This document shows, piece by piece, positions 1,921 to 63,537 of a stretch of DNA of 64,000 bases. The stretch's first letter is position 1; the number at the start of each line of letters is the position of its first letter. Origin of the DNA: Callorhinchus milii (Eukaryota); NCBI RefSeq assembly GCF_018977255.1, contig NW_024704743.1, forward strand, positions 6,636,001 to 6,700,000, given 5' to 3'. The notes beneath the pieces are model-generated. The model did not search any database. It was not told the DNA's origin and saw only the letters and a program-made list of their open reading frames with translations. Position numbers and translations under genes: made by a program.

Positions 1921-2280
1921 AGCTCAAAGCCTAAGTTGAAGTCCAGTGCAGCATTGGAGGAATGCTGTATTGTCTAAGGTGCAATCTTTCAGATGAGATG
2001 TTAAATCAAAGTTCCATCTGCCTATTCTTCAGGTGGATATTAAAGGTCCCAGGATACTATTCAAAAAGAGAGGTCCCAGGATACTATTCAAAAAGAGAAG
2101 AAAATTTCTCCCAGTGTCCTAGCCAATAATCCTGATTAATTGGTCACACACCGTGTGGCTGATTGTGAGACATTACTGTGTGCAAAACAGCTGCCCAGTT
2201 TGCCTACAAAAACAGTCACTACATTACTTGATAGTAATTAATATGAAGCAGCTAGGAGACATTTCAACGGTTCGGTATAT
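1921..2280 (+). mobile_element. Old DeuSINE (SacSINE1/AmnSINE1-like) with a 27-bp tandem duplication at 2044-2097
   Basis: TCTTTCAGATGAGATGTTAAA...CAGGTGGATATTAAA...CAGTGTCCTAGCCAA resembles the recalled Deu domain. Confidence 0.75.
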
Positions 2281-2369: not shown

Positions 2370-3066
2370 ACCCCACCCTACTCTGTAACCTTACCTACAT
2401 ACTAACTCCACCTCTTCCGCTCGGTGAGCCTGCTTCATGTCCCCCGCCCTACTTGCCCCACCATTGGTCAGGCTTTCAGTTTATCTGCCCCCACTTTCTG
2501 GAACTCTATCCAGCAGTCCCTATGACTCACCCCTTTCCTTGCCTCCTTCAACGTCCACCTCAAGATCTTTCTCTTTGACCATGACCGCCCTACCATCGGT
2601 GGTCGGGCCTTCAGCCTCTCAGCCCCCAGGCTCTGGAACTCCATCCCCCAGTGCCTTCGCCGCTTCCTCCCTTTCCTCCTTCAAGGCCGGTCTCAAAACC
2701 TTTCTCTTTGACCGTGCCTTCAGCTCCCCTCTCGACTCTCTTCCCCCTCCTCGCTCCCTCCCTTCCCTCCCCTCACCCTGACCATTTCCCCCCTCCTCTC
2801 TCCCTCCCTTCCCTCCCCTCACCCTGACCATTTCCCCCCTGCTCGGGTCATGACCCAACTGTGCAGCGCCTTGGGACGTCCTCCTGACGTGAAAGGCGCT
2901 TTATAAATGGAATCTTGTTGTTGTTGTTGTTGTTGATGACCTTTCACCCCCTCCACCCTCCTCGGCTCCCACCCCTAGCTTGGGTAGTACAAGCCCTGGA
3001 CTTTCCAGTGCCTTGGGACATCTTCCCGGCCTGAAAGGCCCTATATAAATGTAAATTTGTTGTTGT
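2370..3066 (+). mobile_element. Nested L2 LINE 3' ends
   Basis: SFKAGLKTFLFDRAF C-terminus, C-rich UTR and GGGACGTCCTCCTGACGTGAAAGGCGC...(GTT)n tail. Confidence 0.88.
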
Positions 3067-3220
3067 ATATCAAGTAGGAATCTTCCTTTATTTCTCTCTC
3101 TCTCTGTTTCTTTCGTTCCTTCTTTCTTTTATCCCGGTTTCCTTTTGTAGATCTATGGTACATCTGTGACATACTGAAATAGTGTCGAATAAAAAGCTAT
3201 ATTTTTTCTGATCACTTCTA

Positions 3221-4472
3221 CAGTTCTGATCACTTCTACAGCTACTGGTGTTCCATAGACAGCTTTCAATCTTTATGCGCAATATTCTTTTGATATATAG
3301 TTTTAATTTCACTCTCTGCATTTAGTTTTAATAAATGCAGTAACGAGCACAAATTGTGCTCCAGCAGTTACATTGCTGATATTGAACACCCATGGTTTGT
3401 GAAATTTCATAAACTGCAAGATGTATTAAGTGTGCTTTAACAAATTGAAGGAGCCTATATCTTACAACACAATCATCATAAAACTGTGGCTGTGACTACC
3501 TTTAAGAACACAAAATGTCTCGGCCCACTTGAATTGTGTTTTTGTAAGAAACATTGGAATGACATTCTTGCTGCTAAAAATTGGCACTTGTTCAAAGTAA
3601 TAATAAATCAAATGAGCACCTTCATACCTAAATCATAGTAGTCAATATTATAATGAGTTCATTATGATCCTTTATTATTGTAATTGGTCTAGAGCTTTGC
3701 ATATCACTACTGCAAACCATCTTGCAGATGTTCACTGAATAGCAAAGTCAGGCAGTCAGACAAGAACCTCTGCAGTTACAGGTGAGTCTTGATCGTCGTC
3801 TCTTGTCCTTCTATTCACCAGATTGTCTGATTAATTGATGAATTTCCCAGGTCCTTAATAAATGAGTGAATTCTCATAAAGCCAATTGGAAAGGTTTGTC
3901 TCCTATGGATGTGTTCCAAATGCCCCAAAAGTGTTCTTTGTGTTCATATCAGATAGCATGCAGCCCTGCCTGAAATCAATATGATGAAGGACTGATTCTT
4001 GAACACACAACATAAATGGATCCAGTTCTGATCACTTCTACAGCTACTGGTGTTCCATAGACAGCTTTCAATCTTTATGCGTAATATTCATTTGATATAT
4101 ATTTTTAACTTCACTCTCTGCATTCAGTTTTAATAAATGCAGTAACGAGCACAAATTGTGCTCCAGCAGTTACATTGCTGATATTGAACACCCATAGTTT
4201 GTGGAATTTCATAAACTGCAAGATGTATTAAGTGTGCTTTAACAAATTGAAGGAGCCTATATCTTACAACACAATCATCATAAAACTGTGGCTGTGACTA
4301 CCTTTAAGAACACAAAATGTCTCGGCCCACTTGAATTGTGTTTTTGTAAGAAACATTGGAATGACATTCTTGCTGCTAAAAATTGGCACTTGTTCAAAGT
4401 AATAATAAATCAAATGAGCACCTTCATACCTAAATCATAGTAGTCAATATTATAATGAGTTAATTATGATCC
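3221..4472. repeat. 450-bp direct repeat pair (3221-3670 and 4023-4472)
   Basis: Copies offset by 802 bp; 8 substitutions counted by eye. Confidence 0.95.
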
Positions 4473-9460: not shown

Positions 9461-12343
9461 CTTAGAATTAAATACTAATCCTATAGCTTGGGGAGCTTTT
9501 GTAACATTCCTGAACAAAATCTACAAGTATACTAGCCAGGAATTTTGTGAAGTGCTTCGAGACATATCAATTTTACGGGTGCTATAACAAATTATTGTGT
9601 CAATACAAAAAATTGCTTGTCATTTGATAGGTGATCCGAGCCTCAACTGTAGCCTTCATCTTCTCTCCATTTCAACCTTTCTTGTCATCCTATTTTACCG
9701 ATACTCCTACAGTCTTTGCTGTTTTGAACTTTTCTTAATTGTTCCAAATATGTTACTCTAAAAAATGTTCTCCTTCTTGTATCCGAACTATGTTGAAATA
9801 AAAACTTACCATTGTACAGTGAAATTGACATTTATACGTAAATTACACAACTGAATGAAATGTTCAGGCCAGTTCAATGGCTGCCACAAATGGCTGTGTG
9901 TCAAACTGTTTTCACAAAATTGAGGTTAATTGGTTATCAACCAGTTAAGCACAACAATGTGATAAAAATGTGATGACAATCACCAGTGATAATTATGAGA
10001 ATGTTGTCATTTTCACAACACAGTTTTAAAGGACAGGTTCCCATGCTCTGCACAACACAATATACATCATCAGACAGGAACCAGAAATGAGACAAGGGAG
10101 TAAATGGTATACTCTTTGTACATGTTTAACTGCAATGTATTTGTAATTTGTTGGGATACTGCAAATCAAATAAAACATTAGAAACATGTGATGAATGGAG
10201 GGCTGTGTACGTATACCAAAAGCATTTAATTGGCTGCCGTGGTTCACCCACAAAATATGTAGACAATTCATTTGACAGTATATTCTGTGAAGTGCTTTGA
10301 GATGTCTCGAAGACTTGATAAGGCACTAAATCAAATGCAAGGATTATTATTATTATCCATTCGCCATAACAGTAATTAATAAATAAATATAACTAAATAA
10401 ACATTAGTAAATAACTATAGTATTGGTTCTGGACACTGCATGTAGAAATCTTTGACCCACATCAAAAGAAGAGCACACAAGTACATTTCAAAGCCTGAAT
10501 ATATTCGGTCTCAAATTAAAAGAAAATCTTTGTTTTCATATTATGGTCAGATTTTTCAATCTGATAAAGACTATAATTATTCCCTGTTGAATTCTAAAAC
10601 AAACCAGAGACCAGGCTTTTGGTATCCTTCCAGAAAGTCTTTGCAAACATCTGCAGACCACATCATTGCTGCAAACCTGTTTTTTGTAATATTTTATTTA
10701 GCTGCTGTGCTCCCCAGCTGTTCAGCTCCAGGAGTTCTGACTGCCTGTCTTGTTATTCAGTAAATATAGCATGCTCATTAGTTCACTGAATCTGCATTAA
10801 AATAGTTTTACCTAATCAACACATAATCTCTGAATTTCTTTGAAAACTATTAATTTTCTTGCCAATTACAAGTGATATTGCCGAATTAGGCAATTGGCAT
10901 TTTGCTTGTAAAACAAACGTCTTGTGGTTAACCAGATCTTGACTCTATTCAGGCACCAAGAAACTACAACCCTAAATATTTTACATTAAACGATTATTAT
11001 GCAGGTGTGCAACATATGCAGCAGAAATGACTTTAGTGGTGACATACTGCATGATACATATTCCTAGAGCACAAAGGCATAGCTTTAAACTTTTGTTAAC
11101 TTAAAGAAACAAAGTGCTTCATGCTCACATTCTTAAAACTGAACTCAATTTCTGTTACTAAAACATATGTTGTTATATGAGTATATTGTGTAATTCAAAT
11201 ACCAGATTATTTTCCTGCGATGGTGTATTGTTGTACTGAACGCTAAATAATTTCAGTTAATAATTACGGGAAAATAAGTTTTAATTCATATGTCTTGATT
11301 TAAATTTTGTCTTGATTTGAATTGGACATTTATTGATACTTGTCAGATTCATTTCCATAATGGTATATTCTTAACTGTAATACATTATAGGCTATGTGGA
11401 TATTAAGCGCATCAAGAATAAACAAATACGAGTTGTTGATCAATTCTTAATCATTTCTGGTGGTCAGCTATCAACTGCACATGCATTGTTGCATATATTT
11501 TGTATCACTTCCACTTCACAAGGTCATAAGTGAGCTTCAGATAATTGAGCTTCAGGCCCTTTTTGTCTATTTGATCTCTTTCTTCCAGAACACTCAGCTA
11601 CTGGTGCTATATCAAATTATTATTTGATCTAGAGAGGTTATTCTAGATCGCGCTTTCAGTCATCTTTCCCCTGCCCACCCCTTTGGCTTCCACCCAAAGC
11701 TTGGGTGCCGTGCTGGCATTGTCAAGTAGTTTGAGATGCCTTCCTGACATAAAAGACTCACTTGGAGTCACAAATTTATGGAGGAATATTATTATTTTAT
11801 TGTGATGTTGTTCATTACTTTGTCCAAGTTGCTATTCTTCACGTGTGTACCTGAATAATGGTTATTTGTAGACTGTTTACTGTTGAAGGGATTCAAAATT
11901 TAACTTGACTTTTATAGTTCCATCAGAAGTTACTGATAAGTGTATACGTGTAAATTGCATTGTAAAATTGTGTTGCATCTGAACAGGCAGACAGGGTACT
12001 TCAATTTAAACTTATCTAAAGAACAGCACTTGCAACAATGCAGTACAACCCCAGCACTGCGTTAGAGTGCCAGCCTTGTGTTGGAAGACTGAACTGTGAG
12101 TTCACCTGCAGAATGAAGCTGTGATGTCAAAGTCTGAATGTGGGGCTTGAATCCACAATCTTGTGACTCAGAGTCGTCAGTGCGAGCTGTCAGCTAAGCC
12201 AGGCTGACACCTAATATGGGAGCGTTGTCCGATAAACTTGTAATTATCAGGTTTTGATGGAAATATCAGTACTTAACACAAAAAAGAAACTGAAGATCTG
12301 AGAAATGGGTTTAACAATGAAGAAACTCTGGACATGTCCTTAC

Positions 12344-14929: not shown

Positions 14930-16990
14930 CGTGATTGGAGGCCAACAAAGTGGACAAGGTAAAGAAGTGAATGGAAGGTAGCTTGTACATTGATGAAGAC
15001 ACAGTGGCAGCGTGTATATGAAATTGGCTGGGAGACAGAAAACAGAGGGTGGTGGTGAATATTTGTTTTTCATACTGGAGGGAAGTATACAGTAGTGTCT
15101 CCCAAGGGTCAGCATTAGGTCCTCCAGTCTGAAAAACAACTATTCACCACTACCCTCTGTTTTCTGTCTCCCAACTAATTTTGTATCCATGCTGCCACTG
15201 TCCCTTTTATCCCATGGGCTTCAATTTTGCTAACTAGTCTATTATGTGGCACCTTATCAAACACGTTCTGAAAGTTCATATACACTACATCAACTTCACT
15301 ACCCTCATCTTGGTATAAAGAGGAAATTTTCAAGTTTGCAATGACACAATGAGGTGATGCATTTTGGGAGGAAGAATAAGGAGAGGCAATATACAACAAC
15401 AACAACAAAATTACATTTGTATAGCACCTTTTACGATGGGAGGACGTCCCAAGGCACTGGATAGTCAAAGTTTCGGACCCAAGCTGGGCGTCGGAATTGG
15501 GGAGGGTGGAGGGTAGGGGGGAAGCAGGGTGATCGAAAGCATGGACAAAGAGGAGGGTCTTGAGATGGGTCTTGAAGAAGGCAAGGGAGAGGGCGAGGCA
15601 GAGGGATTGCGGGATGGAGTTTCAGAGGGTAGGAGCAGAGTGGCAGAAGGCCGCCCACCGATGGTGGGTGGGAGGGGCAACGCGGAGGACGTGAAGCAGG
15701 CCAGAGCCTGTTGAGCGGAAGGAGCGAGCAGGACGATAGGGGGTTAGGAGGTTGCAGAGGTAGGGGGGAGCAAGCCCATGGAGGGCTTTGAAGGTGATGA
15801 CCAGGATCTTGAACCGTATCCTCTGTGTGATGGGAAACCAGTTGGGTGTGGATGGGGGCAATAGGGTGACGGAGCCTGGTGTGGGAGAGGACACAGGCTG
15901 CAGAATTCTGGATGATCTACAGCCTATGGAGGACTATAAATGGTACAGTTTTAAAGGGAGTTCAAGTGCAGAGAGACCTGGGGGTTCACATGCACAGGTA
16001 TATGATGGCGGCAGGACAGGTTAATAGATCTGTAAAGCATATGGGATCCTTGGCTTTATAAATAGAGGCATAGAGTACAAAAGCAAGGAAGTTCTGCTAA
16101 ATATTTATAAGTCATTTTGAGGGGATTCGACAGGGTGAACAAAGAGAAACCATTTCCACTGGCGGGCGGGTCGGTAACCCAAGGGCACCGATTTAAAATA
16201 GTTGTTAAAAGAAACAGAGGGGAGGTGAGGAGAATTTTTGTTCACACAGCAAGTTGTTCGGATCTGGAATGCATTGCCTGAAAGGGTGATGGAAGCCGAT
16301 TCAATAACAGCTTTTAAGAGAGAAGTAATAATAATAATAAACGTTGCATTTGATATAGCGCTTTTCATGTCTTCTAGACATCTCAAAGCACTTCACAGAA
16401 TATGTTGTAAAGTGAATTGACCGTCCCTCAACCTCTGGAATTCCATCCCCGAGTCACTCCACCTCGCTCCCTCCTTAGCCTCCTTCAAATCCCGCTTCAA
16501 GACCGTCCTCTTCGACCATGCCATCAGCCACCCCCCTTCCACTCCCCTCCCTTACCCCCCCCAACCCCAGCTCAGGTCTGAAATGCTGTACTCTGTCCAG
16601 CGCCTTGGGACGTCCTCCCGACATGAAAGGTGCTATACAAATGTAATCTTGTTGTTGTTGTATATTTGTGGGCGAAACGCGGCAGCAAATTACGCACAGT
16701 AGTGTGCCACAAACAGTCGTGAATTGAAAATTACCAATTTATTGCTGTTTTGGAGGAATTATTATGTAAGGAGGCACATGGTCAAGATGCCTGCCTTGAC
16801 GTTACTTCCTGCCCAGGAAATGAAGTTAAGAACAACAAGTTAAGTAGATAATTATTTGGGGAGGACACGTTTGCAGGGCTATGGGGACAGAGCGGGGGAG
16901 TGGGGTTGAATTCGATAGCTCTTTTCAAACAGCCGGCACAGACACGATGGGCTGAGTGGCCTCCTTCTGTGCTGTATAATTCTATGATTC
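14930..16990 (+). mobile_element. CR1 LINE with internal inverted duplication and nested L2 (15394-15932 -), SINE (16325-16765 -) and L2 (16423-16660 +)
   Basis: CR1 RT motifs (VVYMNFQNVFDKVPH, ERDLGV-like, WNALPE) and an ATTCTATG tail, interrupted at the stated points. Confidence 0.85.
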
Positions 16991-17556: not shown

Positions 17557-19199
17557 CTAAAAGAGAAATTTAAAATAAATATTCCATTAAAATTAAATCA
17601 GAATCTATTGAAACTAGCACATTTTCTTTACAAAATCAAGTAAATTCTTACACCATCAATACATTTTTCACTTAATTTTGTGCTTCAAAAGTTCAACACA
17701 AGGCTATGGGTAAGAGTGGGCAAATGGGACTAGTTGGACAACTCTGTCAAAGAACCAGCACAAGCACAATGGGCCGATTGGCCACCTTCTGCTCTGTAAG
17801 ATTCTATGATTCAATTAGAGAGAGCATTTTATGAAAAATTCATGACCGGGCTCATCTTCTTCCTGATTTGGGGGGGTCATCAATAACCATTACTTCTTTC
17901 TCATGTTCATGTAGCACATTCTTGAAGTACGTCTTTTGTATTTTCTTCTTGCACAATGTAAAAGTCTGAAATTAGTATTGACCTGTTAGCTTCAGAAGTT
18001 CTCTGTGAGCTTACGAAAAAATGTTTACTTTGGGTCAGCTATGAAATGGTCAAGTGCATTTGGTGAAAGACACTCAAAATTGTCCTGTCAGCATAACATT
18101 TGACAATCAGCTGTTTGTAGCACTTTGCAAAAAGACTAATAAAATATTGGAGTAGGCACAATGCAGACTAGATTGCTCCTATGTTCCAATAATATTTAGC
18201 AATTAAAAGGACAATGATCACAGAAAGCCTTTTTTAAAGAGAGCATTTAGTTTTAAACTCCATTTTAATGAATGTTAAGGAGAGGTTTACCTAGGATGGA
18301 ATTTCTAATCTAGACTCTCCCTTCCCATTGCTAGAATATGATTCCAGTATTGGCTGGCATGTGTGTTTTTCTTATATAAAGACTGCTTTTCTACTTTGCG
18401 TGTGACAAAGGGGCAGAGGGAGAGCACAGTCATATAACCACTGGTTTTGATTATCAATCTGTGATTAGTCGATTGGCAGATCACTTTTCTGGGGGTAATA
18501 ATCCCTTCAAAAAGTAAATAAATAAATAATAATTTAGTTACTCAAATCACAACTATTTGTGAGACACTGCTGTGCGCAATTAGCTGATGAGCTTTGCCCA
18601 CAAAATAAACAGTCAATTCACTTAACAGTATATCCTGTGAAGCACTTTGAGACATCTCAAAGACGGGATAAGACACTATATCAAATGCAAGGATTATTAT
18701 TATTATTATAATTCTGCTTGAACCCCTATCAACTGAAACCCCACCAGGTGGAGGTAGTCACTGAATGTCTTGCTGATGATCAGAACAACTGCAATGAGAT
18801 TATTTGATCTGAACAAATTGCTTACATTGAAAACTTATGCTGAATTGGTAATAAGATTCCCACTCTGATACGTCATAAAACAGTAGGCCTGGTCACTGGA
18901 AAGGATATGGGATAAAGGATAGAATACATGGCGCTTGAAGCACATTTTAAACTTGTAAGGGATTTAACCAAGCAATTTGAAGTTAGATGCATCTCAAGAT
19001 GGTTGCTGAAAACTCAAATAAAAAATTTACAAGTTAAACTTGTGTAATTCAGACAAACATTGTTGACATTTCTTTTTATATTACAAAAAATGGCAATTAT
19101 TTTTGTCCTACAATAAGATAACACAACAAAATTACTACCAATAAAATGAACAATCAAAATTGAGGTTAATGCTTGGAAGGATCACATAATAAAAATAAT

Positions 19200-19645
19200 A
19201 ATCATTGATAAAGCACCACATCTCATCATCAAACCATCTCAAAGTGCTTCATAGGATATAGTGTAAATGGATTGACTAATTCGTGGGCAAAGTGAGGCAG
19301 CCAGTTTGTGCACAGCAGTTTGCATGGAGGCATGAGGTGAGTGACCAATTTTTTATTTGGGGGGATTTGTTGGCCAGGACACTGGGAGAAACTCCCTTCT
19401 CTTTTTAAATATAGCCATCAAATCTTTAACAGATCTTTATCTAAACAGGCAGATGGTACTCCGGTTTAACATCTCATCCCAAGGATGGCACCTCCAACAA
19501 TGCAACATTCCCCCAGCACTGTATTGGTGTGTCATCTTAGACTATGTGATTCTAAGTCTTGACGTGGAGCTTGAACCCACAATCTTCTGACTCAGAGGCG
19601 AGAGTGCTACCACTGCACCCAGCTGACACTGCACCAGGCTGACAC
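19200..19645 (-). mobile_element. Old full-length DeuSINE
   Basis: tRNA head (CTTGAACCCACAATCTTCTGACTCAGAGG on plus), Deu domain and tail. Related pieces at about 11980-12210, 43170-43430, 43520-43800 and 52265-52550. Confidence 0.8.
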
Positions 19646-22555: not shown

Positions 22556-22879
22556 GTGGAGTCCTGTAGCTCAGTGGTTAGAGCACTCGCTTTGCAAGCG
22601 AGAGACCTGAGTTCAATTCCAGGCAGAGGGCGAAACCTTGGGCAAGTTTCCTTACTCCACACAGAGCCTAATAATAATCCCTCCAAAAAAAANTCAATAA
22701 TAAATTGGTCATTTTCAATCTACGACTGTTTGTGGGACATTGCTGTGCGCAATTGGCTGCTGCGTTCGCCCACAAATATACAGTCAATTCACTTTACAGT
22801 GAGTTCTGTGAAGCGCTTTGGGACGTCCTCCCGACGTGAAAAGCGCTATATCAAATGCAAGGATCATTATTATTATTAT
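22556..22879 (+). mobile_element. Full-length young tRNA-Ala-derived DeuSINE (short subfamily)
   Basis: A-box TAGCTCAGTGG, anticodon arm CTCGC-TTTGCAA-GCGAG, B-box GTTCAATTCC, Deu-like GTGGGACATTGCTGTGCGCAATTGGCTG, L2-like tail and (ATT)n. Confidence 0.92.
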
Positions 22880-23049: not shown

Positions 23050-25100
23050 CACAATAATAATTTGCATTGTTCACACTGGGTAGCATCCCAGAGCACTTCA
23101 AACTGTTGGAGCCGGGGGGAGGTTAGGGTTAGGTACCGTGGAAGAGAAAGATCCTCAGGTGCGTCCGATGGTGGAACGGAGGGCACAAGGGACATGCAGA
23201 AGACTGGAGCCAGTGGCGCACAGTGGGTTGGGAAGTAAACAGGTCGGAGAGGTAGGGAGGTGCCAGGGCATGAAGGGATTTGAAGACGAGTGTGAGGATC
23301 TTGAAATCAATCCATTCAGCGATAGGGAGCCAAGCTGGAACTGGTGTGATGGCAGTATGAAGTTTAATACGGGTAAGTATGTGGGCAGTGGAGTTTTGGA
23401 TCAGCTGGATTTTGTGGCGTGGTGGAGCTGGGGAGACCGGGGAGGAGGGCACCTGAATAGTCAAGCCGAGGTGACGAATGCATGGATAAGTGTTTTGGCT
23501 GTGTCTGGGGTAAGGTACGGTCAACAACAACAGCAACAACAAGATTACATTTGTAAAGTGACTTTCATGGCGGGAGAACGTCCCAAGGCGCTGGACATAG
23601 TACAGCATTTCAGACCCGAGTTGGGGTTGGGCGGGTAAGGGAGTGGAGGGGAGGGGAAGGGGGGTGGCCGATGGCATGGTCGAAGAGAAGGGTCTTGAGG
23701 TGGGACTTGAAGGAGGTTAAGGAGGGGGCGAGGCGGAGTGACTGGGGAATGGAATTGGGGGCAGTGGCTGAAGGCTCTCCCGCCAATGGTGGGGCGGGTG
23801 GGTCGGGGGACGTGGAACCGGCTGAGTGGAGGGGATGGGCGGGTTGGTTGGGGGTTACGAGGTCACAGAGGTAGGGTGGGGCGAGGCCACGGAGGACTTT
23901 GTATGTGAGGACCAGGATCTTGAACTGGATCTCTGAAGGATAGGGAGCTAATAGAGTCGGGCGAGAGTGGAGAGATGGGGTCACGGAGTTTGGTGCAGGA
24001 GAGGACACAGGCTGCAGAGTTCTGGATTATCTGCAGCCTGTGGAGGGAGGAGTTGGGAAGGCTGACAAGCAGGGAGTTTGCATAGTCGAGCCTGGAGGTG
24101 ATGAAGCATAAACAAGAGTTTCAGCGGCCTGAGGGGTGAGGTAGTGGCAGGGTTGTGCGATGTTACGGAGGTGAGGGAAGGCAGAGCGGGTCATGACTTG
24201 AATGTGGGGGAGAAAAGACAGTTGAGGGTCGAACAAGACACCTCGGTTCCTGACTGGCTGGTGAGTTGTAGTGTGCAACCATGGAGGTTGATGTTACCAG
24301 AGCTTGAGGTGCTGAGGCACTGGCTCGAGCCAATCAGGAGGGCCTCAGTCTTATTCACATTCAACTGTAGGAAATTTGCCCACATCCAGGACTTGATGTC
24401 CGACAGGCAGTCTGTCAGGACAGCACTGGACCTGGAGTTGAGGGTGGAGGCAGAAAGATAGAGTTGGGTGTCATCCGCATACATGTGGAAGTTGACCCCC
24501 ATGTCTGCGGATGATGTCACCAAGGGGGAGCATGTAGATATTAAAGAGGAGAGGACCAAGGACAGAGCCCTGGGGGACGCCAGATGTGACAGTGCAGGGG
24601 CTGGAGGAGAAACCGTTAGAGGCAAGGAAGTGGAGACATTGAGAGAGACAGGAATCAAATCAGGCAAGGGCAGATCCGTGAAGATTGAGTAAAGCGGAGA
24701 GGCGGTGTATGAGGATGGAGTGGTCGACAGTGTCGAAGGCAGCAGAGAGGTCGAGAAGGACAAGGAGGCAGAGGGAGCCCTGATCACAGATGTTAAGAAT
24801 ATCATTAGTGACTTTGACCAGGGCTGTTTTGGAGGGGATTGGAGGGGTTCAAAGAGGGAATGGCAAGAGAGAAAGAAGTTTAGTATGGGTAAGTATGTGG
24901 GCAGTGGAGTTTTGGATCAGCTGGATTTTGTGGCGTGGTGGAGCTGGGGAGACTGGGGAGGAGGGCACCTGAATAATCAAGGCGAGAGGTGACGAACCCG
25001 TGGATGAGTGTTTTGGCTGTGTCTGGGGTAAGGTACGGTCATTAGTGACTTTGACCAGGGCTGTTTTGGAGGGGATTGGAGGCAATGTGGCGGAGGTGGA
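23050..25100 (-). mobile_element. Young L2 (about 23522-24845, RT with MYADDTQLY) inserted in an older L2 3' end, with a complex junction
   Basis: ORFs 24191-24805, 23610-24008 and 23129-23677 are L2 ORF2 pieces. Confidence 0.92.
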
Positions 25101-26085
25101 GGAAGGTGTTCCTGGTCAGGGACCGGATGTGGGGTACTGTAGCACCCATAGATCATTTGTAAATTTTTAACAAAGATGGAAGAAATAGACAAGATAGCCC
25201 TCTACTGGTCTTTGAGGAATGGAAATACGGAATAACCAGAACAATTATATCACAGCGGCGTTATGCAATATTCACAAACAGCAAGTTGCTGCATTAATAG
25301 CAACTTCTGTTCTGTTAATGAAATTACAAAATCTCAATGACACTCAATACAAAATCAGCAAAACAATTCAGAAGATTTCCAATCCACGACTGTTTGTGGG
25401 ACTGCTGTGCGCAATTGGCTACCACATTTCGACGGCAAAATATACAGTCACTACACTTTACAGTATATTCTGTGAAGCACTTTGAGATATCTCAAAGATA
25501 TGATAAGGCGCTATATCAAATGCAAGGATCATTATTATTATCTTGTTTTGCAGTTGGTGATTTACTTTCTGATCTTTTGTCAGAGATTTGGGGTCTTGGT
25601 CACAAAATAGCCTAAGAACAAAAAGCCAGCCACAAACCTGCGTTCTCCATCATATTATTAAAGGCCCTTTAGTTTTTGTAGTCACTCTTCATGCATTGAA
25701 TAATTAAGGATTTGTGCCCAATGCAAATGTTAATGCCAGGGGTTGGCATGGGCCAGGTTGGTTATTTGGACCAGTCAAAGTGCATTATAGCAAGGCACCA
25801 ATTAAATAGCTTTGGTTAAAACCAGCTCTCGGACGTTTTACAGAATATCCACAAAAGAAACTTAAATTTGGAATTGTTAAAAGACAGTTTCCTTTCTATT
25901 TACTCAAAAGAGATGTCAGTAGAAATGTAAACGTTTACCAGAGTCGTTAGGATGTGAAATGCTCTGCCAGATGTGATGGTCAAGGAAGGATCTAATTAGC
26001 TATCAATAGGGAACTAGATAGATATCTAGGAAGGGCTACGGGGAAAAGGCTAATAAATGGGACTGAAATGTGTCCTCTCCCGTAC

Positions 26086-26555
26086 CAAACTCCGTGACTC
26101 CACCTCCCCCATTCTCGCCCGACTCCATTGGCTGCCTATCCTTCAGAGGATCCAGTTCAAGAGCCTGATCCTCACATACAAAGCCCTCCATGGCCTCGCC
26201 CCACCCTACTTCTGCGACCTCCTAACCCCCTACCAACCCGCCCGCTCCCTCCGCTCAGCCGGCTCCGGCCTGCTACACATCCCCCGACCCACCCGCCCCA
26301 CCACTGGCGGGAGAGCCTTCAGCCACTCTGCCCCCAACCTCAATCACTCCACTTCACCCCTTCCTTAGCCTTCTTCAAGTCCCGCCTCAAGACCCTCCTC
26401 TTCTACCATGCCATTGGTCACCCCCCTTCCTCTCCCTTCTCCCCCCCGACCCCAGCTCGGGTCTGAAATGCTGTACACTGTCCAGCGCCTTGGGATGTCC
26501 TCCCGACGTGAAAGGCGCTACACAAATGTAATCTTGTTGTTGTTATTGTTGTTGA
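26086..26555 (+). mobile_element. Young L2 3' end
   Basis: LHWLPILQRIQFK...YKALHGLAPPY. Confidence 0.92.
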
Positions 26556-32074: not shown

Positions 32075-33475
32075 ACGTGAATCCTGATTACATGGATACA
32101 AAATTAGCTGGGAGACAGAAAGCAGAGAGTAGTGGTGAATGGTTGTTTTTCAGACTGGAGGATAGTATACAATGGTGTCCCCCCAGGGGTCGGTATTAGG
32201 TCCACTACACTTTTTGATATATGTGAATGACTTGGATATAAAGAGCAAAATTTTAAAGATGACACAAAACTTGAGAACGTGGTAAACCGTGGATGGCAGG
32301 AGAATATGGACAGAATAGTGATATGGGCAGACACATGCAGATGAAGTTTATTGCAGAGAAGTGTGAGGTGATGTATTTTGGGAGGAAGAATGAAGAGAGG
32401 TAATATACAATAAATGGTACCGTTTAAAAGGGGATACAAGAGCAAAGAGACCTGGGGGTTAACATACACAGGTCTTTGTAGGTGGTAGGACAGATAGAGC
32501 TTTTAAAAAAGCATATGGGATCCTTGGCTTTATAAATAGAGGCATAATAATTTAATCCTTGCATTTGATATAGCGCTTTTCACGTCGGGAGGACATCCCA
32601 AAGCGCTTCACAGACCACACTGTAAAGTGAATTGACTGTATATTTGTGGGCGAACGCGGCAGCCAATTGCGCACAGCAATGTCCCACAAACAGTCGTAGA
32701 TTGAAAATGACCAATTTATTATTGTTTTGTTTTGGAGAGATTATTATTAGGCGTGTGGAGTAAGGAAACTTGCCCAAGGTTTCGCCCTGACCTGCCTGGA
32801 ATTGAACTCAGGTCTATCGCTTGCAAAGCGAGTGCTCTACCCACTGAGCTACAGGACTCCACGTACTCCATAGAGTACAAAAGCAAGAAAGTTCAGCTGA
32901 ACCTTTATAAATCATTGATTAGGCCTCAGCTGGAGTATTGTGTCCAATTCTGGGCACAGCATTTTAGGAAAGATATCAAGGCCTTGGAGAGGGTGCAGAG
33001 GAGATTTACCAGAATGGTACCAGTGATGAGGGACTTTAGTTAAGTGGAGATACTGGAGAAGCTGGGATTGTTCCCCTTAGAGCAGAGAAGGTTAAGGGGA
33101 GATTTAATAGCGACGTTCAAAATTATGAGGGGTTTTGATAGAGTAGATGGGGGGAAACTGTTTCCACTGGCCGGTGGGTCAGTAACCAGGCCACATAGAT
33201 TCAAGATAATTGGCAAAAGAACCAGAGTTGTATGTAACTGTGTAATTTTTTTTACACAGTGTTGTTAACAGTGTGGAATGCACTGCCTGAAAGGGTAGTG
33301 GTAACAGATTCAATCACAACTTTCCAAAGGGAATTAGATAGGTACTTGAAAAAGAAAAGTTTTGCCGAGGTATGGGAAAAGAGCAGGGGAGTGGGACTGA
33401 TTGGGTAGCTCTTTCAAAGAGCTGACAGATACGATGGGCCGAATGGCCTCTTTCTGTGCTGTAATATTCTATGAT
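32075..33475 (+). mobile_element. CR1 LINE 3' part interrupted by a full-length young SINE (32544-32862, minus)
   Basis: LYKSLIRPQLEYCVQFW...LERVQRRFTRM; CR1 sequence resumes across the SINE (AATAGAGGCATA...CATAGAGTACAA). Confidence 0.92.
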
Positions 33476-40315: not shown

Positions 40316-40845
40316 ATATAATAATCCTCAAAGCGCTTCACAGAATATACACGCCTAATAATAATCCCTCCAAAACCAAAAACAATAATAAATTGGTCAT
40401 TTTCAATCTGCGACTGCTTGTGGGACATTGCTGTGCGCAATTGGCTGCCGCGTTCGCCCACAAAAAATACAGTCAATTCACTTTACAGTGTGTTCTGTGA
40501 AGCGCTTTGGGACGTCCTCCCGACGTGAAAAGTGCTATATCAAATGCAAGGATTATTATTATTATTATACTGTAAAATGAATTGACTATATTTTGTAGGC
40601 AAAAAGCGGCAGTCAATTGTGCACAGAAGTGTCCCACAAACAATTGTGGATTGAGTGATCAAATTATTTATTTTGTAGGAATTATTACCCCGGAAAAGCG
40701 ATCCGCCAATCGACTACTTACTGCTAGGTATACAGAGGAGTATGGAGTAAGGAAACTTGCCCAGCGTTTCACCTTGCCAGGAATCAAACCCATTTCCTTT
40801 TGCTTGCAAAGTAAGTGATCTAACCACTAAGGTACAGGATTCCAC
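40316..40845. mobile_element. Short-subfamily SINE (+, about 40351-40567) nested in a long-subfamily SINE (-)
   Basis: Host sequence CACAGAATATAC|TGTAAA is split, with TATAC on both sides. Confidence 0.85.
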
Positions 40846-42778: not shown

Positions 42779-43869
42779 TAAAGAGATTTTTAAAATAGTT
42801 TCAGATTTTATATTTCTTGTGACAGTTCAATAGATTCTCTCTCCATCAAGGGGAGACAGTTCAGTCATATTCCCTGTCCTGTTAGTAAGCACTATGAAAA
42901 TAAAGATAAATACTGTCACCCTTCCTTAAAGATCAAAATGCACCTACCTCCAGCTTGTGCACAAGTACAAAGCAAAAACAACTTGCTAAACTAGAATTAA
43001 AATCCTATTTTCCCAAGTGATGCCTGTGGTGGTTTACAAAACCAATATATTATTTTACAATTTGTTTTATCAGGTTGTTAGAGGCACACATTCAAATGAA
43101 CAGTACAGTAATAAAAAAGCATGTTGATAAGTCACAAGTAATTACTGTCAAGTGCAGTGACTACTTTTAATGGGCAAGCACAGATCGTTGTCCAAGACAC
43201 TGGGAAAAAACAACCTAACTTTTCAAACAAAAGTGTCAAGGGATCTTTTTAACATCAACCTGAACAGACAAATGGGTCCTCTGTCTAACATCTCATCCAA
43301 AGAACAACATCTTCAATATTGCAGTATTTCCCAGCAATACATTGGAGGAACAACCTAAATGATGAACTTATGTCTTGAACCCATTATCATCTGACTCAGA
43401 GGCAAGAGCGAGACGAATTGAACCAAGCTTCATACAGAAATGAGGCAAAATCATCAGTGATACTGAATTAATGTTAACTATCAAAAATGCAGTCAAAAGT
43501 TTTCAATATCATTGGTATCAGACTGATACACGTCTTTCAGATGAGACGCTAAACTGAAGTCCCATCTGCCTGTTCAGGTGGGTGTTAAAGATCCCTATTC
43601 GAAATGAGAAGGGAGTTCCAGTGTCTTGGCCAATCCCTCCAAAATAAAATTGGTCACTCACTCCATGGCTTTTTATGGGACATTGCAATGCTGCCATGTT
43701 TTGTCCCCAAAATATACACTTAAACCACTTTACAGTAGCACTTTGAGATGTCTCAGCAAAATGATAAGGGTTTATATCAAAGGCAAGGATTATTATTATA
43801 ATAACCACTCCCTCATGATAATTATTGACTGTTTTTCCCACATTTTTCATTCATGTAATAATTGTAAAT

Positions 43870-44711
43870 GGTTGAAGACAAGACCAAGGCCCTCCTGCTT
43901 GGCTCCCATCAGCACCTCTATACTTCTGGCGCTGACAGTCACCCTTCATGGATGCACTCTACACCTCACAGAGCCAATATGGAACCTCGGTGTCCTGTTC
44001 GACCCTCAACTGTCCTTCATAGCCCATATCCGTCTCATGACCAGCTTCATTTTTCCCCACCTCCGCAACATTGCCCAGCTCCGTCAATGTCTCTTACTCC
44101 AGGCCGCCGAGACCCTCCATCCACGTGTTCATCACATCCAGGCTCAACTATGCAAACTCCCTGCTTGTCGGCCTCCCCAACTCCTCCCTCCACCGACTGC
44201 AGATCATTCAGAACTCTGCAGCCTGTGTCCTCTGCCACACCAGGCTCCGCGACCCTATCACTTCCATCCTCACCTGACTCCAGTGGCTCCCCATCACTCA
44301 AATTCGAGATCCTGGTCCTCACCCTAAAAGCACTCCATGATCGCTCCTCCCTACCTCTGTGACCTTCTAACCCCCTACCAACCTATCTGCTCCCTCCACT
44401 CAGTGGGCTCCGGCGTGCTTCACGTCCCCCACCTTCCCCACTTCACCACTAGTAGTTGTGCCTTCAGCCTCTTTGCCCCCACCCTCTGGAACTCCATCCC
44501 ACAGTCCCTCCACCTTGCCCCTTCCTTGCCTCCTATAAGACCCATCTCAAGACCCTCCTCTTCGACCATGCCTTTGATCACCTTCCTACCCCTAACCTCC
44601 CCGCCCTCAACCCCTCCTAATCCCAACCAGCAGCTCAGGTGCAGATCCCTCATCATCCAGCACCTCAAGACATCCTCCTGGCGTGAAAGGCGCTAAACAA
44701 ATGTCATTTGT
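43870..44711 (+). mobile_element. L2 LINE 3' end
   Basis: NLGVLFDPQLSF...HVFITSRLNYANSLL. Confidence 0.9.
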
Positions 44712-45010
44712 TCCTGTAGCTCAGTGGTTAGAGCACTCGTCTTGCAAGTGAGACAACCTGGGTTCAATTCCAGGCAGGGCAAAACCTTGGTCAGGTTTCC
44801 TTACTCCACACGCCCAATAATAATCCCTTCAAAAAACAAAACAATAATAAATTGGTCATTTTCAATTCACGACTGTCTGTGGGACGCTGCTGTGCGCAAT
44901 TGGCTGCCGCGTTTCGCCAATAAATATACGGTCAATTCTCTTTACAGCATGTTCTGTGAAGTGCTTTGAGACGTCTAGAAGATGTGAAAAGCGCTATATC
45001 AAATGCAAGG

Positions 45011-45046
<36 letters not shown>
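44712..45046 (+). mobile_element. tRNA-Ala DeuSINE inserted in the L2 (GTT)n tail
   Basis: Family match; TTTGTT precedes it and TTTGTTGTTGTTG follows it. Confidence 0.9.
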
Positions 45047-45954: not shown

Positions 45955-47420
45955 ACAACAACAAATTACATTCGTACAGCGCCTTTCATGTCAGGACATT
46001 CCAAGGGACACAGAACAATACAACTTACATTTCAAGTCAGGATCCCAAGGCACTGGACAGTGTAGGTTTGCACCAGAACTGGGGGTGGGGTCGAGGGACA
46101 GTGGTCAAATGCGCACTCAAAAAGGAAGGCTTGAGACAGACCTTGAAGGAGGCGAGAAACAGGGTGAGAGTAGGGGTAGATAAGTAGATGGCAAGGTGAG
46201 TGATGTGAAGCAGGCCAGGCCCACTGAGTGGAGGAAGCAGCCAGGTTGGTAGAGTTGAGGAAGTTGCAGAGGTAGGATGGGACAAAACCATGGAGAGATT
46301 TAAAGGATAGGCTTATGGTGTCTCTGCTGACTCTTTTCAGAGCAATCCTTTCAGTCCAATTTGAACTTCCCAGTAGGTTACACAACAACAACTTGCATTT
46401 ATATAGCGCCCTTCAAGCAGGGCAGCGTCCCGGAGCGCTTCATAGTGAAGTCACCGAGCCATGGGGAGAACGAGGTGGGAGATAACCGTAAGCACAATCA
46501 AAAAGGATGGTCTTTAGGCAAGATTTGAAGGTGGGGAGGGAGAGGGCAAGGCAGAGGGATTGAGGGAGAGAATTCCAGGGTTTCGGGAGCAGTGGCTGAA
46601 GGCACGGCCACCAATGGTAAAACGAAGGGCACAAGGGACAATCAGGAGGCCAGAGCCAGCTGAGCGGAGAATGGGGGGGTAAGAAGGTCGGATAGGTAGG
46701 GAGTTGTGAGGGCATGAAAGGATCTGAAATCGAGTGAGAGGAGCTTGAAATCGATTCGTTCGGTGATTGGGAGCCAGTCGTGCGGGTGAGTGTTCAGGCG
46801 GCAGAGTGTTTAATCAATTGGATTTTGTGTATGATGGAGTTGGAGAGATCAACGAGGAGGGCATTGGAATAGTCCAGCCGGGAAGTGACGAAGGCGTGGA
46901 TGAAGGTTTCAGCTGTGTTGGTTGTGAGGTTTGGACCGAGTCAGGCAATGTGACGGAGGTGGACAAAGCGGTCCTAGCCAGGAAATGGATGTGGGGTAGG
47001 AAGGAAAGCTGGGGATCGAACCCGATTCCTAAGTTGCGCATGGGTTCGGAGAGTCTGAGGGAGAGCCCGGGGAGGTTGAGGAGTTCAGACCCACAGGAGA
47101 GAAGACGTTGATTAGTATGGGTCTTGAATCTACAACCTTCTGACTCAGAGAGAGGGGTAAGTGCAACCAAGTGAACAAGGCTGACAACAATCATGTGAGC
47201 ATGACAATTTGTTTTTGTCATGACAAAATAGAGGGATATACACAATATGATTGGATTTCACAGCCAAGACATAGATAGCATGCATTACATTGTAGAACAA
47301 TCAATTAGCAGCAGTAACAACAACTTGCATTTATATAGCGCGTCTCGGAGCACTTAACAGTGGTGGAGCCTGACACCGAGCTGGAGGGAGGAGATGACCG
47401 TAAGCACGATCGAAAAGCAA
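45955..47420 (-). mobile_element. Cluster of L2 3' ends
   Basis: Repeated CAACAACTTGCATTTATATAGCGC starts and L2 ORF2 fragments. Confidence 0.85.
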
Positions 47421-52235: not shown

Positions 52236-53674
52236 CTCAATGCCATACAATATATAATAGAAATAATCCTTGCATTTGGTATAGTGCCTTTCATGTCAGG
52301 AGGACGTCCCAAAGTTCATCACAGGATATACAGTGCAGTGGAGTGACTGTGTTTTGTGAGCAAATTTAACATCCACTTGAACAAACATCCAAGGTCTTGG
52401 TTTAACATCTCATCCGAAGGCTGGCACCTCAACAATGCTACATTTGAGTATCAGTTTAGATTATATGAGTTCCAAGTCTCGATGTGGGGCTTGAACCCAC
52501 AACCTTCTGACTCAGAGACAATAATTCTACCAACTGAGCAAGACTGACACATCATAGATAACTACGTTGAATAATAAAACAAATCTTACCCATTCCCCTC
52601 TCTAAGAGTAATATGAAAAGTATATACTGTAAAAATCCTCCTTCTCCAAAACTCTTAACATTCATTTTCAGCAAGTATTTATCCAATTCCCTGAAAGACA
52701 CTACAATTAACTCAATTTCAGCAGACACTGTAATATAGCAATCCAGACTATCATCCTTCTGTGTGTAAAATAAATTATCTACCTCCCTCTTTTTTCTTCT
52801 GGCAATGATTCTCATCCTTGGCAGAGTCTCTTTGGAGCTGAGTTAGCTCCAAAATGCACACCTGCAAATGGAAGATTGAAATCAAGTTCATCTTCTACAG
52901 GACTCAAGGGAACAGTGTTGATGGCAGATCAGTCAGCTTAGCTCATCAGTAGGATTCGGAAAAGACCAGTCATTGGGAGTTTTGAATCTTTCACTTGGCT
53001 CCCAATAACCCTACAAGCCAAATATTCCTAAAGAATATGGTGGTCTTAACTGGGCAAGCAGAGTTTACGGGTTTTCTGCATTATTAGGCTGCATGATTAA
53101 ACGCCAAGAGTATACCTGATCCATATTTTGGATCCCAAACCCTTGGCTCTTGTCGTTCTACACCTAAATTTCCCAGATTTATTCCTCTGAGAAGAGAGTA
53201 CCCACTCCATACCATACACATGTTGAACTCTCAATAGTTTTATTTGGAGACTCTAAAGCATTGTGGTAGGTTTCTATATGCGTAGAGATACTTGACTGCC
53301 CTAAGGAAACGTTCATGCATTACTCAACTCTTCGCAGTAGAAAGTATGAGTGTGAGTTTAAATCTACATCTTTCATCATATTATGCAGCTTAACCTCTTC
53401 TATTTTCCAGTGAAAATGTTTCAGCTATTAAATGAGAGCTCAAAATCTCCAACTTAATTATTTTCCTTTAATTAACACTCTGACATTTCAATTCTCCTTT
53501 GAAGAGAGGCATGGCATAATCTCACATCCCTTCCCATAAACCATCAAAATAATAAATAAATAATAAATCTGAGAACCTTAACCTGTTTAAAACCCCTAAT
53601 ATGTGCAGAGAAGGAAAAAAATGTTCTCAATAAAGAGGCGTTTTGAACTTAATCTCGCAGGAAGTTAAGTACTC

Positions 53675-55118: not shown

Positions 55119-56046
55119 GAGCGGGTGGCAGCGAGCGGGTGGCAGGGAGTGGGTGGCAGGGAATGGGTGGCAGTGGCAGGGAGTGGGTGGCAGGGAATGG
55201 GTGGCAGTGGCAGGGAGTGGTTGGCAGGGAATGGGTGGCAGGGAGCAGGTAGCAGTGGCAGGGGATGGGTGGCAAGGAGTGGGTGGCAGGGATCGGGTGA
55301 CAGAAAGCGGGTGGCAGGGAGCGAGTAGCAGTGGCAGGGGATGGGTGGCAAGGAATGGGTGGCAGGGAGCGGGTAGCAGTGGCAGGGAATGGGTGGCAAG
55401 GAGTGGGCGGCAGGGCGCGGGTAGCAGAGAGCGGGTGGCAGGGAGCGGGTGGCAGGGAGCGGGTGGCAGAGAGCGGGTGGCAGGGAGCGGGTGGCAGAGA
55501 GCGGGTGGCAGAGAGCGGGTGGCAGGGAGCGGGTGGCAGGGAGCGGGTGGCAGGGAGCGTGTGGCAGGGAGGGAGCGGGTGGCAGGGAGCGGGTGGCAGG
55601 GAGCGGGTGACAGAGAGCGGGTGACAGAGAGCGGGTGGCAGGGAGCGGGTGGCAGGGAGGGAGCGGTGGCAGGGAGCGGGTGGCAGGGAGCGGGTGGCAG
55701 GGAGGGAGCGGGTGGTAGGGAGCGGGTGGCAGGGAGCGGGTGGCAGGGAGCGGGTGGCAGGGAGGGAGCGGGTGGCAGGGAGCGGGTGGCAGGGAGCGGG
55801 TGGCAGAGAGCGGGTGGCAGGGAGCGGGTGGCAGGGAGCGGGTGGCAGGGAGCGCGGGTGGCAGGGAGCGGGTGGCAGGGAGGGAGCGGGTGGCAGGGAG
55901 CGGGTGGCAGGGAGGGAGCGGGTGGCAGGGAGGGAGCGGGTGGCAGGGAGCGGGTGACAGAGAGCGGGTGACAGAGAACGGGTGGCAGGGAGCGGGTGAC
56001 AGAGAGCGGGTGACAGAGAGCGGGTGGCAGGGAGCGCGGGTGGCAG
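55119..56046. repeat. G-rich minisatellite, 14-bp unit GGGAGCGGGTGGCA with variants
   Basis: Directly visible tandem array. Variants include GAGAGCGGGTGGCA, GAGAGCGGGTGACA and 18-bp GGGAGGGAGCGGGTGGCA. Confidence 0.97.
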
Positions 56047-61944: not shown

Positions 61945-62612
61945 CGTACTCCACTCCTCTGCTTGCTCCCTCTACTTAGCTAACAGAGGTCTGCTGCCCA
62001 TGTCCTTTCCCCTCCGCTCCACCATTAATGGTTGAGCCTTCAGTCACTATGAAGGCTCATAATAATCCCTCCAAAACAAGAAAACAAAAATAAATTGGTC
62101 ATTTTCAATCTACGACTGTTTGTGGGACATTGCTGTGCGCAATTGGCTGCCGCGTTCGCCCACAAATATACAGTCAATTCACTTTACAGTGTGTTCTGTG
62201 AAGCGCTTTGGGACATCCTTCCGACGTGAAAAGCGCTATATCAAATGCAAGGATTATTATTATTATTATTATTGCTGTGCGCAATTGGCTGCCGTGTTCG
62301 CCCACAAATATAGTCAATTCACTTTACAGTATATTCTGTGAAGCGCTTTGGGACATCTAGCAGACGTGAAAAGCGCTATATCAAATGCAAGGATTATTAT
62401 TATTATGTTTCTCACCTCTGAAACTCCTTGCCTCTATCCCTCCATTTTGCCCCCTTTCTTGCTGTCTTTAAACCCCTCTTAAAGCCTGCCTCTTCAATCA
62501 CATCTATAATCATCTCCCCTCCCTCTTCTCCCTTGATTAGTATCAACCCACACAGTGAAGTGTTCTGAGACACTATCCTATGTGAAGAACACTATATAAA
62601 TGCAAATTGCTG
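61945..62612 (+). mobile_element. Old L2 3' end interrupted by tandem SINE 3' halves (62059-62405)
   Basis: Two SINE tails in tandem inside the L2. Confidence 0.85.
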
Positions 62613-63120: not shown

Positions 63121-63537
63121 GTGGAACCCTGTAGCATATTGGTTAGAGCACTCGCCTCGCAAATGAGAAGACCTGGGTTTGATTCTCGGGCGGGGCGAAA
63201 CCTAAGGCAAGCTTCCTTAATCCACACCTAGCAGTAATTAGGAAATAGATTGCTAGTCGATTGGTGGATTGCTTTTCGGGGGGAATAATCCCTTCAAAAA
63301 AAAATTTAAAAAATAATAATTTGTTTATTTAATTATAGTAATAATAATATAATTAAAATATATACTGGACTAATGGATATGCTACAGGACTGTGGGACAC
63401 TGTTGTGCCCAATTGGCTGCCGTATTTCGCCCACAAAATATAGTCAATTAATTTTACAATATATTCTGTGAAGCGCTTTGAGACGTCTCGAAGAAGTGAT
63501 AAGGCGCTATATCAAATCCAAGGATTATTATATTATT
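63121..63537 (+). mobile_element. tRNA-Ala DeuSINE, long subfamily, with an internal copy of its own 5' flank
   Basis: Family match; 63060-63124 is repeated at 63328-63395. Confidence 0.85.

What the first reader, a model, noticed from the sequence alone, without database searches (positions are those of the whole stretch)
22810..22862. SINE 3' stem-loop keeps its stem but changes its loop; youngest copies match the young L2 LINE
Seen: SINE tails fold as AGCGCTTT..ACGTC-[5 nt]-GACGT..AAAGCGCT. The stem is shared, apart from CpG decay in single copies, while the loop differs: TCGAA/TCAAA in long or older copies (63480, 18655, 25490), TAGAA in others (44970, 31270), and CTCCC in the near-identical young copies (22825, 32585, 40515). 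Young L2 ends carry the same hairpin with CTCCC/CTCCT (2876, 16610, 26495). Established: SINEs borrow the RT of a partner LINE through a shared 3' tail, and in eel UnaL2 the 3' stem-loop is the recognition element. Inference: the SINE updated its loop to track the currently active L2, leaving a readable record of SINE-LINE coevolution.
Basis: partly seen in the sequence, partly recalled or inferred. Interest (0 to 1): 0.7.

Follow-up and report, generated by a model that had tools for sequence, protein, structure and literature searches.

The report
Young SINE borrowed a LINE loop
The youngest copies of a parasitic short repeat carry a five-base RNA loop that matches an older, stable LINE family and was probably copied from it as a tiny patch, a small twist on the known way such repeats borrow their copying enzyme.

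Summary
The hairpin is real. The SINE loop classes are age-ordered: CpG decay is 41/58 in long-body copies (mostly TCGAA/TCAAA), 14/32 in TAGAA copies and 4/40 in CTCCC copies. The element is most likely CmiSINE (SINE2-1_CM type) with an L2-2_CM-like partner, a known elephant-shark pair.

The 'tracking' reading is only half right. The L2 loop did not change: L2-A copies up to about 30% apart carry CTCCC, CTCCT or TTCCC. The youngest three are as decayed as TAGAA SINEs (14/33). Nested insertions put these L2s both before and after TAGAA SINEs. No L2 with a TCGAA or TAGAA loop was found.

Young SINEs match L2-A over 24 internal bases but keep the SINE stem pair and (ATT)n end, so this is a patch, not a tail swap. 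In public contigs the CTCCC SINE signature is 9.9% in organism A and under 0.2% in two relatives, which hold deep L2-A tails.

Best reading: the loop drifted by single steps, then was captured en bloc from a long-standing partner. A benefit to mobilisation is inferred, not shown. Earlier scan notes cover this family, not its loops.

The parts
22558..22879 (+). Full-length young SINE copy (CTCCC class), short body form, (ATT)n tail
22561..22631 (+). tRNA-Ala-derived head
   Evidence: ARAGORN; Rfam RF00005 43.5 bits
22812..22847 (+). 3' stem-loop: 8-bp lower stem, 3x2 internal loop, 5-bp upper stem, 5-nt loop
22818..22841 (+). 24-nt tract identical to the L2-A hairpin consensus; bounded by the SINE-type T-A stem pair at 22817/22842 (C-G in L2-A)
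22828..22832 (+). Loop CTCCC (TAGAA in the parent class)
32555..32863 (-). Second full-length young CTCCC SINE
40353..40569 (+). 5'-truncated young CTCCC SINE inserted into an older long-body SINE on the minus strand
62053..62270 (+). 5'-truncated young SINE, loop CTTCC (one private change)
62271..62406 (+). Intermediate SINE: two young-type body changes and GGG, but loop TAGCA
44712..45045 (+). TAGAA-class SINE inserted into the (TTG)n tail of an older CTCCT L2-A copy (43880-44712)
16334..16765 (-). TAGAA-class SINE split by an L2-A1 insertion
16425..16660 (+). L2-A1 3' end, loop CTCCC, (TTG)n tail, inserted into the TAGAA SINE
23524..24886 (-). L2-A1 copy with broken ORF2 (RT fragment) and decayed CTCCC hairpin, flanked by a 153-nt duplication of an older L2 (23371-23523 and 24887-25041)
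26065..26550 (+). L2-A1 copy, loop CTCCC
2590..2935 (+). Older L2-A 3' end, loop CTCCT, about 20% from the L2-A1 copies
52255..52560 (-). Old copy of a second SINE family (different head and body) whose hairpin is L2-A-like (GGG, CTCCT, GAAAGGC) but whose end is SINE-type
63121..63531 (+). Long-body SINE, loop TCGAA, stem GATAAGGC
46385..46670 (-). Example of the second L2 lineage (L2-B): same lower stem with compensatory changes, different upper stem and loop

Best explanation
A tRNA-Ala SINE (CmiSINE type) is mobilised in trans by an L2 ORF2 protein that binds the 3' stem-loop (established for this class). Its likely partner is the L2-A lineage, whose upper stem it has shared throughout (inferred). 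L2-A kept a CTCCC/CTCCT/TTCCC loop through its history in this window (shown). The SINE loop meanwhile moved by single-base steps (TCGAC/TCAAC, TCGAA, TCAAA, TAGAA), and the SINE lost the extra T and gained the GGG internal loop. That left perfect 10-nt and 9-nt arms around the loop (sequence shown, order inferred). One master copy then took the L2-A loop as a 5- to 24-nt internal patch, by a double reverse-transcriptase template switch or a short gene conversion (inferred). This lineage produced the youngest burst, in organism A only. The cognate loop probably raised mobilisation (inferred, untested).
For: Young versus TAGAA classes: 6 fixed differences in 12 nt (22821, 22828-22832), all to the L2-A letter, against about 7 in the other ~160 nt. 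Inner hairpin identity to L2-A is 20/20 (young), 14/20 (TAGAA) and 13/21 (long); outside it is unchanged at 21/32, 21/32 and 22/32. The longest exact match to three L2-A copies is 14-18 nt for the young copy and 6 nt for a TAGAA copy. The SINE-type T-A pair, 3' end and (ATT)n are kept, so a single tail switch is excluded. L2-A loop constancy and age. Nesting in both orders. Copy 62271-62406 has GGG and young body changes with a TAG-type loop. The old copy near 52293 shares 18 exact nt with the older L2-A at 2876, suggesting a second capture. In contigs, SINE-type A at 16598 in front of a CTCCC-fitting hairpin is 9.9% of depth in organism A against 0.16% and 0.18% in B and C, while L2-A tails are deep in all three. 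Loop swaps block zebrafish L2 mobilisation (PMC4176376).
Against: Only 64 kb were read: 4 young copies, 1 intermediate and 8 L2-A hairpins. The intermediate's loop TAGCA already has the C of position 4, as a stepwise path would predict. The SINE tree is unresolved, with 0 starred branches. If recognition is as strict as in ZfL2-1 and ZfL2-2, purine-loop SINEs could hardly have reached high copy number on a CTCCC L2, which favours an unseen partner. Outside the inner hairpin the SINE is slightly closer to L2-B (23/32) than to L2-A (21/32), and its (ATT)n end matches neither. The duplication flanking L2 23570 is only 7/153 diverged (4.6%, CI 1.9-9.2), and the L2-A1-specific 3' UTR is deep in organism A only (7.5% of hairpin depth against 0.16-0.2%). 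The 52293 copy is a single copy.
Confidence: 0.5

Rival explanations
1. One reading: the SINE followed successive L2 partners, each with its own loop. TCGAA and TAGAA L2s exist elsewhere in the genome, and CTCCC marks a switch to the L2 active last.
For: Strict loop specificity in ZfL2-1 and ZfL2-2 (PMC4176376). The SINE's (ATT)n end matches no L2 tail in the window. The L2-A1 subfamily, like the CTCCC SINE, is enriched in organism A. The flanking duplication of L2 23570 is as little diverged as young SINE pairs.
Against: 0 of 13 aligned L2 tails have a purine loop. CTCC-type L2s are older than and contemporary with TAGAA SINEs. In organism A only one C>G place passed 6% (16597), so G at loop position 3 of the L2 site is under 6%, although purine-loop tails would tend to be laid on the SINE site instead. 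A genome-wide study named one partner, L2-2_CM, for all these SINEs (PMC5499810). The older loops are linked by single-base steps.
Confidence: 0.2
2. Stepwise convergence: the SINE reached CTCCC by successive point mutations, each selected for better binding to the L2-A protein, with no transfer of sequence.
For: Earlier hairpin changes came one at a time and two moved toward L2-A (loss of the extra T; GAG to GGG). The intermediate copy has TAGCA.
Against: All 4 young copies carry the whole change (CTCCC x3, CTTCC), and no copy with 2-4 of the 5 changes is among 25 loops. Five adjacent neutral changes to the L2 letters have a chance near 1e-7 by a rough estimate with a hand-set rate, so every step would need selection.
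Confidence: 0.15
3. The patch was captured but is a passenger: the L2-A protein reads stem shape and tolerates many loops, and the young burst reflects a well-placed or well-transcribed master copy.
For: Purine-loop SINEs are the majority (20 of 25 loops) and are deep in organisms B and C without the CTCCC class. Loop sequences of zebrafish L2-clade elements are described as highly variable (PMC1636434). The young class also differs in its head and body.
Against: The capture covers exactly the part shown to give specificity in zebrafish L2s, and may have happened twice.
Confidence: 0.15

Closest known systems
CmiSINEs (SINE2-1_CM, SINE2B-1_CM), SacSINE1-CM and LINE L2-2_CM of Callorhinchus milii (PMC5499810; parts 1-4 of 6 read, supplement not readable)
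   Same: tRNA-Ala head; two close forms; a second, older SINE family sharing only the 3' part; tail similar to an L2 (78.6% in the paper).
   Different: The main text never mentions loop, stem or hairpin and resolves no CTCCC subfamily. It rules out recombination with the L2 for the origin of the 160-bp end; the patch described here is a later, internal event.
Major SINE/LINE pair of the elephant-shark survey (PMC1845163; passages read)
   Same: Reports 41 of 46 identical 3' bases. The young copy gives 41/46 against three L2-A copies and a TAGAA copy 33-34/46. I chose the 46-nt span knowing that number, so this is not an independent test.
   Different: No structure, loop classes or ages given in the passages seen.
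Stringent L2 pairs: eel UnaL2/UnaSINE1-2 and zebrafish ZfL2-1/ZfL2-2 (PMC1636434 part 1 and passages; PMC4176376 parts 1-4 of 5)
   Same: Two stems around a hinge, short loop, terminal short repeat; the loop gives specificity through the variable tail-binding region.
   Different: Their loop is GGAUA (UnaL2). Here most SINE copies have a loop unlike any L2 seen, and the terminal repeats of SINE and LINE differ.
SINE module exchange and tail switching by template switch or recombination (passages of PMC4824008, PMC4758252, PMC2653535)
   Same: A SINE gains LINE-matching 3' sequence and so keeps a partner.
   Different: Those cases replace the whole tail. Here only 5-24 internal bases change, which needs two crossovers.

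Membership tests
CmiSINE (SINE2-1_CM / SINE2B-1_CM) | tRNA-Ala-derived head | tested here: met
   6 tRNA-Ala calls in SINE heads, Rfam tRNA
CmiSINE (SINE2-1_CM / SINE2B-1_CM) | 3' part (~160 bp) shared with a second, older SINE family with another head and body | tested here: met
   Copy 19200-19620 aligns with the tRNA-Ala SINEs only over its last 120-160 nt, 71-77% on the longer matches. The label Deu for that family is recalled, not from a call.
CmiSINE (SINE2-1_CM / SINE2B-1_CM) | CORE-like body | not testable with these tools
   No CORE consensus was available from any call
CmiSINE (SINE2-1_CM / SINE2B-1_CM) | Two forms about 5% apart | tested here: inconclusive
   15 differing columns in about 310 outside the ~60-nt insert, from small consensus sets
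CmiSINE (SINE2-1_CM / SINE2B-1_CM) | Sequence identity to the Repbase consensus | not testable with these tools
   Supplement of PMC5499810 not readable; no repeat library on hand
Stringent L2 SINE/LINE pair | Shared 3' stem-loop with compensatory changes | tested here: met
   86.6% of cells paired; covariation 0.244 against 0.195 shuffled (0/500) and at most 0.162 slid; lower-stem pairs UG/UA/CG and UA/CG. Relatedness inflates the shuffle test; upper-stem double changes look like CpG decay.
Stringent L2 SINE/LINE pair | Terminal short tandem repeat | tested here: met
   (ATT)n in the SINE, (TTG)n in both L2 lineages; the units differ
Stringent L2 SINE/LINE pair | Loop-dependent mobilisation in trans | not testable with these tools
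   Needs a retrotransposition or binding assay
L2-clade LINE (L2-2_CM) | RT domain placing it in the L2 clade | tested here: inconclusive
   RVT_1 hit in 1 of 5 frames scanned, E 3.9e-5, below the curated cut-off; homologue search timed out; no phylogeny against named L2s

The most novel reading that the evidence does not exclude
SINEs can re-tune to a partner by capturing just the recognition loop from the LINE RNA through a double template switch at the protein-bound hairpin. This happened at least twice here (young CmiSINE lineage; old second-family copy) and set off a lineage-specific burst, giving a natural, datable loop-swap experiment with sister genomes as controls.
Probability: 0.3. 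Interest if true: 0.65.

Novelty: new variant of a known kind. Interest (0 to 1): 0.42.

Why it matters
Loop-specific recognition by L2 proteins has been shown with engineered swaps in two zebrafish LINEs. This family offers natural alleles of one SINE tail that differ almost only in the loop, with an age order, nested insertions, and relatives that lack the newest allele. It makes two questions directly testable: how strict loop recognition is for a SINE, and whether SINEs can change specificity by a micro-patch instead of a whole new tail. The SINE/LINE pair itself is known.

Tried and rejected
No whole genome was held, so the genome-wide census was not possible.

Metagenome scans: 0 hits for the hairpin pattern; 8 loci for a looser pattern, which match the window over 18-26 nt only and were dropped as chance.

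Read laying showed only 40 of 117 letter rows and 15 of 1034 joints. The loop columns 16372-16376 and 16615-16618 were not among them, so loop shares could not be read directly. No RNA holder was listed. The 33% figure for run X5 is not used, because RNA is a guess and contigs do not show level.

The protein homologue search timed out. The PDB search found 0. The SINE tree had no starred branch, and 5 of 25 rows, including the 52293 copy, were left out as too short. One search used a misplaced bracket and is replaced.

TCAAA as mere CpG decay of TCGAA is doubtful: 6 TCAAA against 0 TTGAA, p 0.03. Whole-tail replacement is rejected (SINE end kept). An alternative pairing of the bases before the upper stem with the loop was noticed by eye but not tested.

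Literature: searches found no paper on loop classes in these SINEs or on loop-only capture. The library lacks most subscription papers, the original DeuSINE paper was not held, and the unread supplement of PMC5499810 aligns the tails and may show the loop.

Full report
What is there. Position 22558-22879 is a full-length SINE with a tRNA-Ala head, a 3' hairpin at 22812-22847 and an (ATT)n tail. About 30 pieces of this family lie in the window. The hairpin folds as an 8-bp lower stem, a 3x2 internal loop, a 5-bp upper stem and a 5-nt loop. The motif occurs 23 times against 0.21 expected. On 33 aligned SINE and L2 tails, 86.6% of cells pair and the lower stem shows compensatory types. The anatomy fits CmiSINE, SacSINE1-CM and L2-2_CM of the elephant shark (PMC5499810). 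I could not compare against the published consensus, so species and family are inferences. Earlier scan notes on this genome say the same, which is not independent evidence.

Loop classes and age. Of 36 tail-anchor hits, 25 give a usable loop: 20 purine-type and 5 CT-type. Pairwise differences are 3.6-4.6% among the four young copies, 7.4-15.5% among six TAGAA copies, and 10.4-20.7% among six copies of the long type. CpG decay is 4/40 (4 young copies), 14/32 (4 of the 6 TAGAA copies) and 41/58 (7 long-type copies, one with TAGAA and one with the loop deleted). A young copy sits inside a long-body copy. The classes differ in more than the loop: long copies have GAG and GATAAGGC, most TAGAA copies GAG and GAAAAGC, young copies GGG and GAAAAGC. 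Intermediates exist: a long body with TAGAA (766-1128), a short body with TAGAA and the old stem (hairpin near 60050), and a copy with GGG, two young body changes and TAGCA (62271-62406). The older loops TCGAC, TCAAC, TCGAA, TCAAA and TAGAA are joined by single-base steps; TAGAA to CTCCC is five changes at once.

The L2 side. Two L2 lineages are present and separate on a tree of 3' regions without the hairpin (support 94/95). L2-A has the SINE's upper stem and a CTCCC, CTCCT or TTCCC loop in all 8 aligned copies. L2-B (5 copies) has another upper stem and loop. L2-A is not young. Its closest trio (16610, 23570, 26495; here L2-A1) is 10.4-12.4% apart, and the rest are 18-32% apart. CpG decay in the trio is 14/33, the same as in TAGAA SINEs (p 1.0) and more than in young SINEs (p 0.002); other L2-A copies show 57/74. 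An L2-A1 copy interrupts a TAGAA SINE, and a TAGAA SINE interrupts the tail of an older CTCCT L2. So CTCC-loop L2s were inserting before and after TAGAA SINEs. One result points the other way: the 153-nt duplication around L2 23570 differs at only 7 sites (4.6%, CI 1.9-9.2%), which would make that insertion about as recent as the young SINEs.

A patch, not a new tail. Between TAGAA and young classes, 6 fixed changes fall in 12 nt and all give the L2-A letter; about 7 fall in the other ~160 nt. Identity to L2-A over the inner hairpin goes from 14/20 to 20/20, while the flanks stay at 21/32. The shared tract is 22818-22841. Just outside it the SINE keeps its own T-A stem pair (C-G in L2-A), its own end and (ATT)n. 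Reverse transcription starts at the terminal repeat (PMC1636434), so one template switch would have brought the LINE's end with it; two crossovers are needed. Once GGG was in place, the loop had perfect arms of 10 and 9 nt, which suits a double switch or a short conversion (inference). An old copy of the second SINE family, 21-30% from all others, carries an L2-A-type inner hairpin with 18 exact bases shared with the older L2 at 2876, and again a SINE-type end. This may be a second capture, but it is one copy.

Outside the window. I laid contigs of 4 of 24 listed runs on 16300-16800, which holds a TAGAA SINE hairpin and an L2-A1 hairpin. At 16598 an A marks SINE-type sequence in front of a hairpin that fits the CTCCC site. 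Its share of depth is 9.9% in organism A and 0.16% and 0.18% in organisms B and C. Depth through the TAGAA hairpin falls to 0.62 of its flanks in A but 0.91 and 0.89 in B and C. The L2 hairpin bin is deep in all three (4.4, 7.8 and 9.5 million), with (TTG)n loose ends. This fits a CTCCC SINE class that arose after A split from B and C, on an L2-A tail that is older than the split. The L2-A1-specific 3' UTR is also deep in A only, which may mean a lineage-specific L2 subfamily or just divergence past the 80% limit. Limits: contig depth is not copy number, some differences were not counted, and the loop columns were not among the 40 of 117 rows shown.

How it most likely works. Established: L2 ORF2p binds the 3' stem-loop, and in ZfL2-1 and ZfL2-2 the loop decides specificity while stems can be swapped (PMC4176376). 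Shown here: the classes, their order, the constant L2-A loop and the internal tract. Inferred: L2-A was the partner throughout and tolerated purine loops; the loop was captured en bloc; the capture helped the last burst (0.5 overall). The weak point is the middle step. Strict recognition is hard to square with 20 of 25 SINE loops matching no L2 seen, so either recognition here is looser than in zebrafish or a partner was missed in 64 kb.

Relation to what is known. The pair is known. A 41-of-46 3' match was reported in the survey paper (PMC1845163); the young class gives that figure on a span I chose knowing it. Whole-tail exchange is a standard idea. The main text of PMC5499810 has no word on loop, stem or hairpin. 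Searches found no report of loop classes in these SINEs or of loop-only capture. Most subscription papers, Repbase and that paper's supplement were not seen. Also read as passages: PMC3747384 and PMC13343379; neither addresses the loops. The label Deu for the second family is recalled.

Verdict. Observation partly confirmed, interpretation partly supported. A new variant of a known kind: a readable series of hairpin alleles ending in a probable micro-capture from a stable partner, not shown to be step-for-step coevolution. Interest 0.42.

Noticed in passing
window 23371-23523 and 24887-25041: An L2-A1 copy sits inside an older L2 and is flanked by a 153-nt direct duplication (7 differences): an unusually long target-site duplication, or a later local duplication.
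   Followed up: partly
window 62030-62590: Two SINEs in tandem (young, then intermediate) inside an L2-B copy; the second starts right after the first one's (ATT)n.
   Followed up: partly
window 3221-3520 and 4023-4322: A 300-nt direct duplication, 98% identical, 802 nt apart, in non-repeat-looking DNA.
   Followed up: no
window 55100-56000: A 14-nt minisatellite array in a GC-rich region, which accounts for several long spurious ORFs.
   Followed up: no
window 2420-3085: Stacked L2-A 3' ends with internal duplications; two hairpins 142 nt apart.
   Followed up: no
window 18637-18692, 25472-25527 and other long-type hairpins: The bases before the upper stem and the loop form an inverted repeat around ACGT in TCAAA/TCGAA copies, and GGG pairs with CCC in CTCCC copies; an alternative fold is possible (seen for 16590-16655).
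   Followed up: no
window 1925-2250, 11977-12183, 19200-19620, 43187-43408, 43500-43800, 47118-47186: Further decayed copies of the second, older SINE family.
   Followed up: partly
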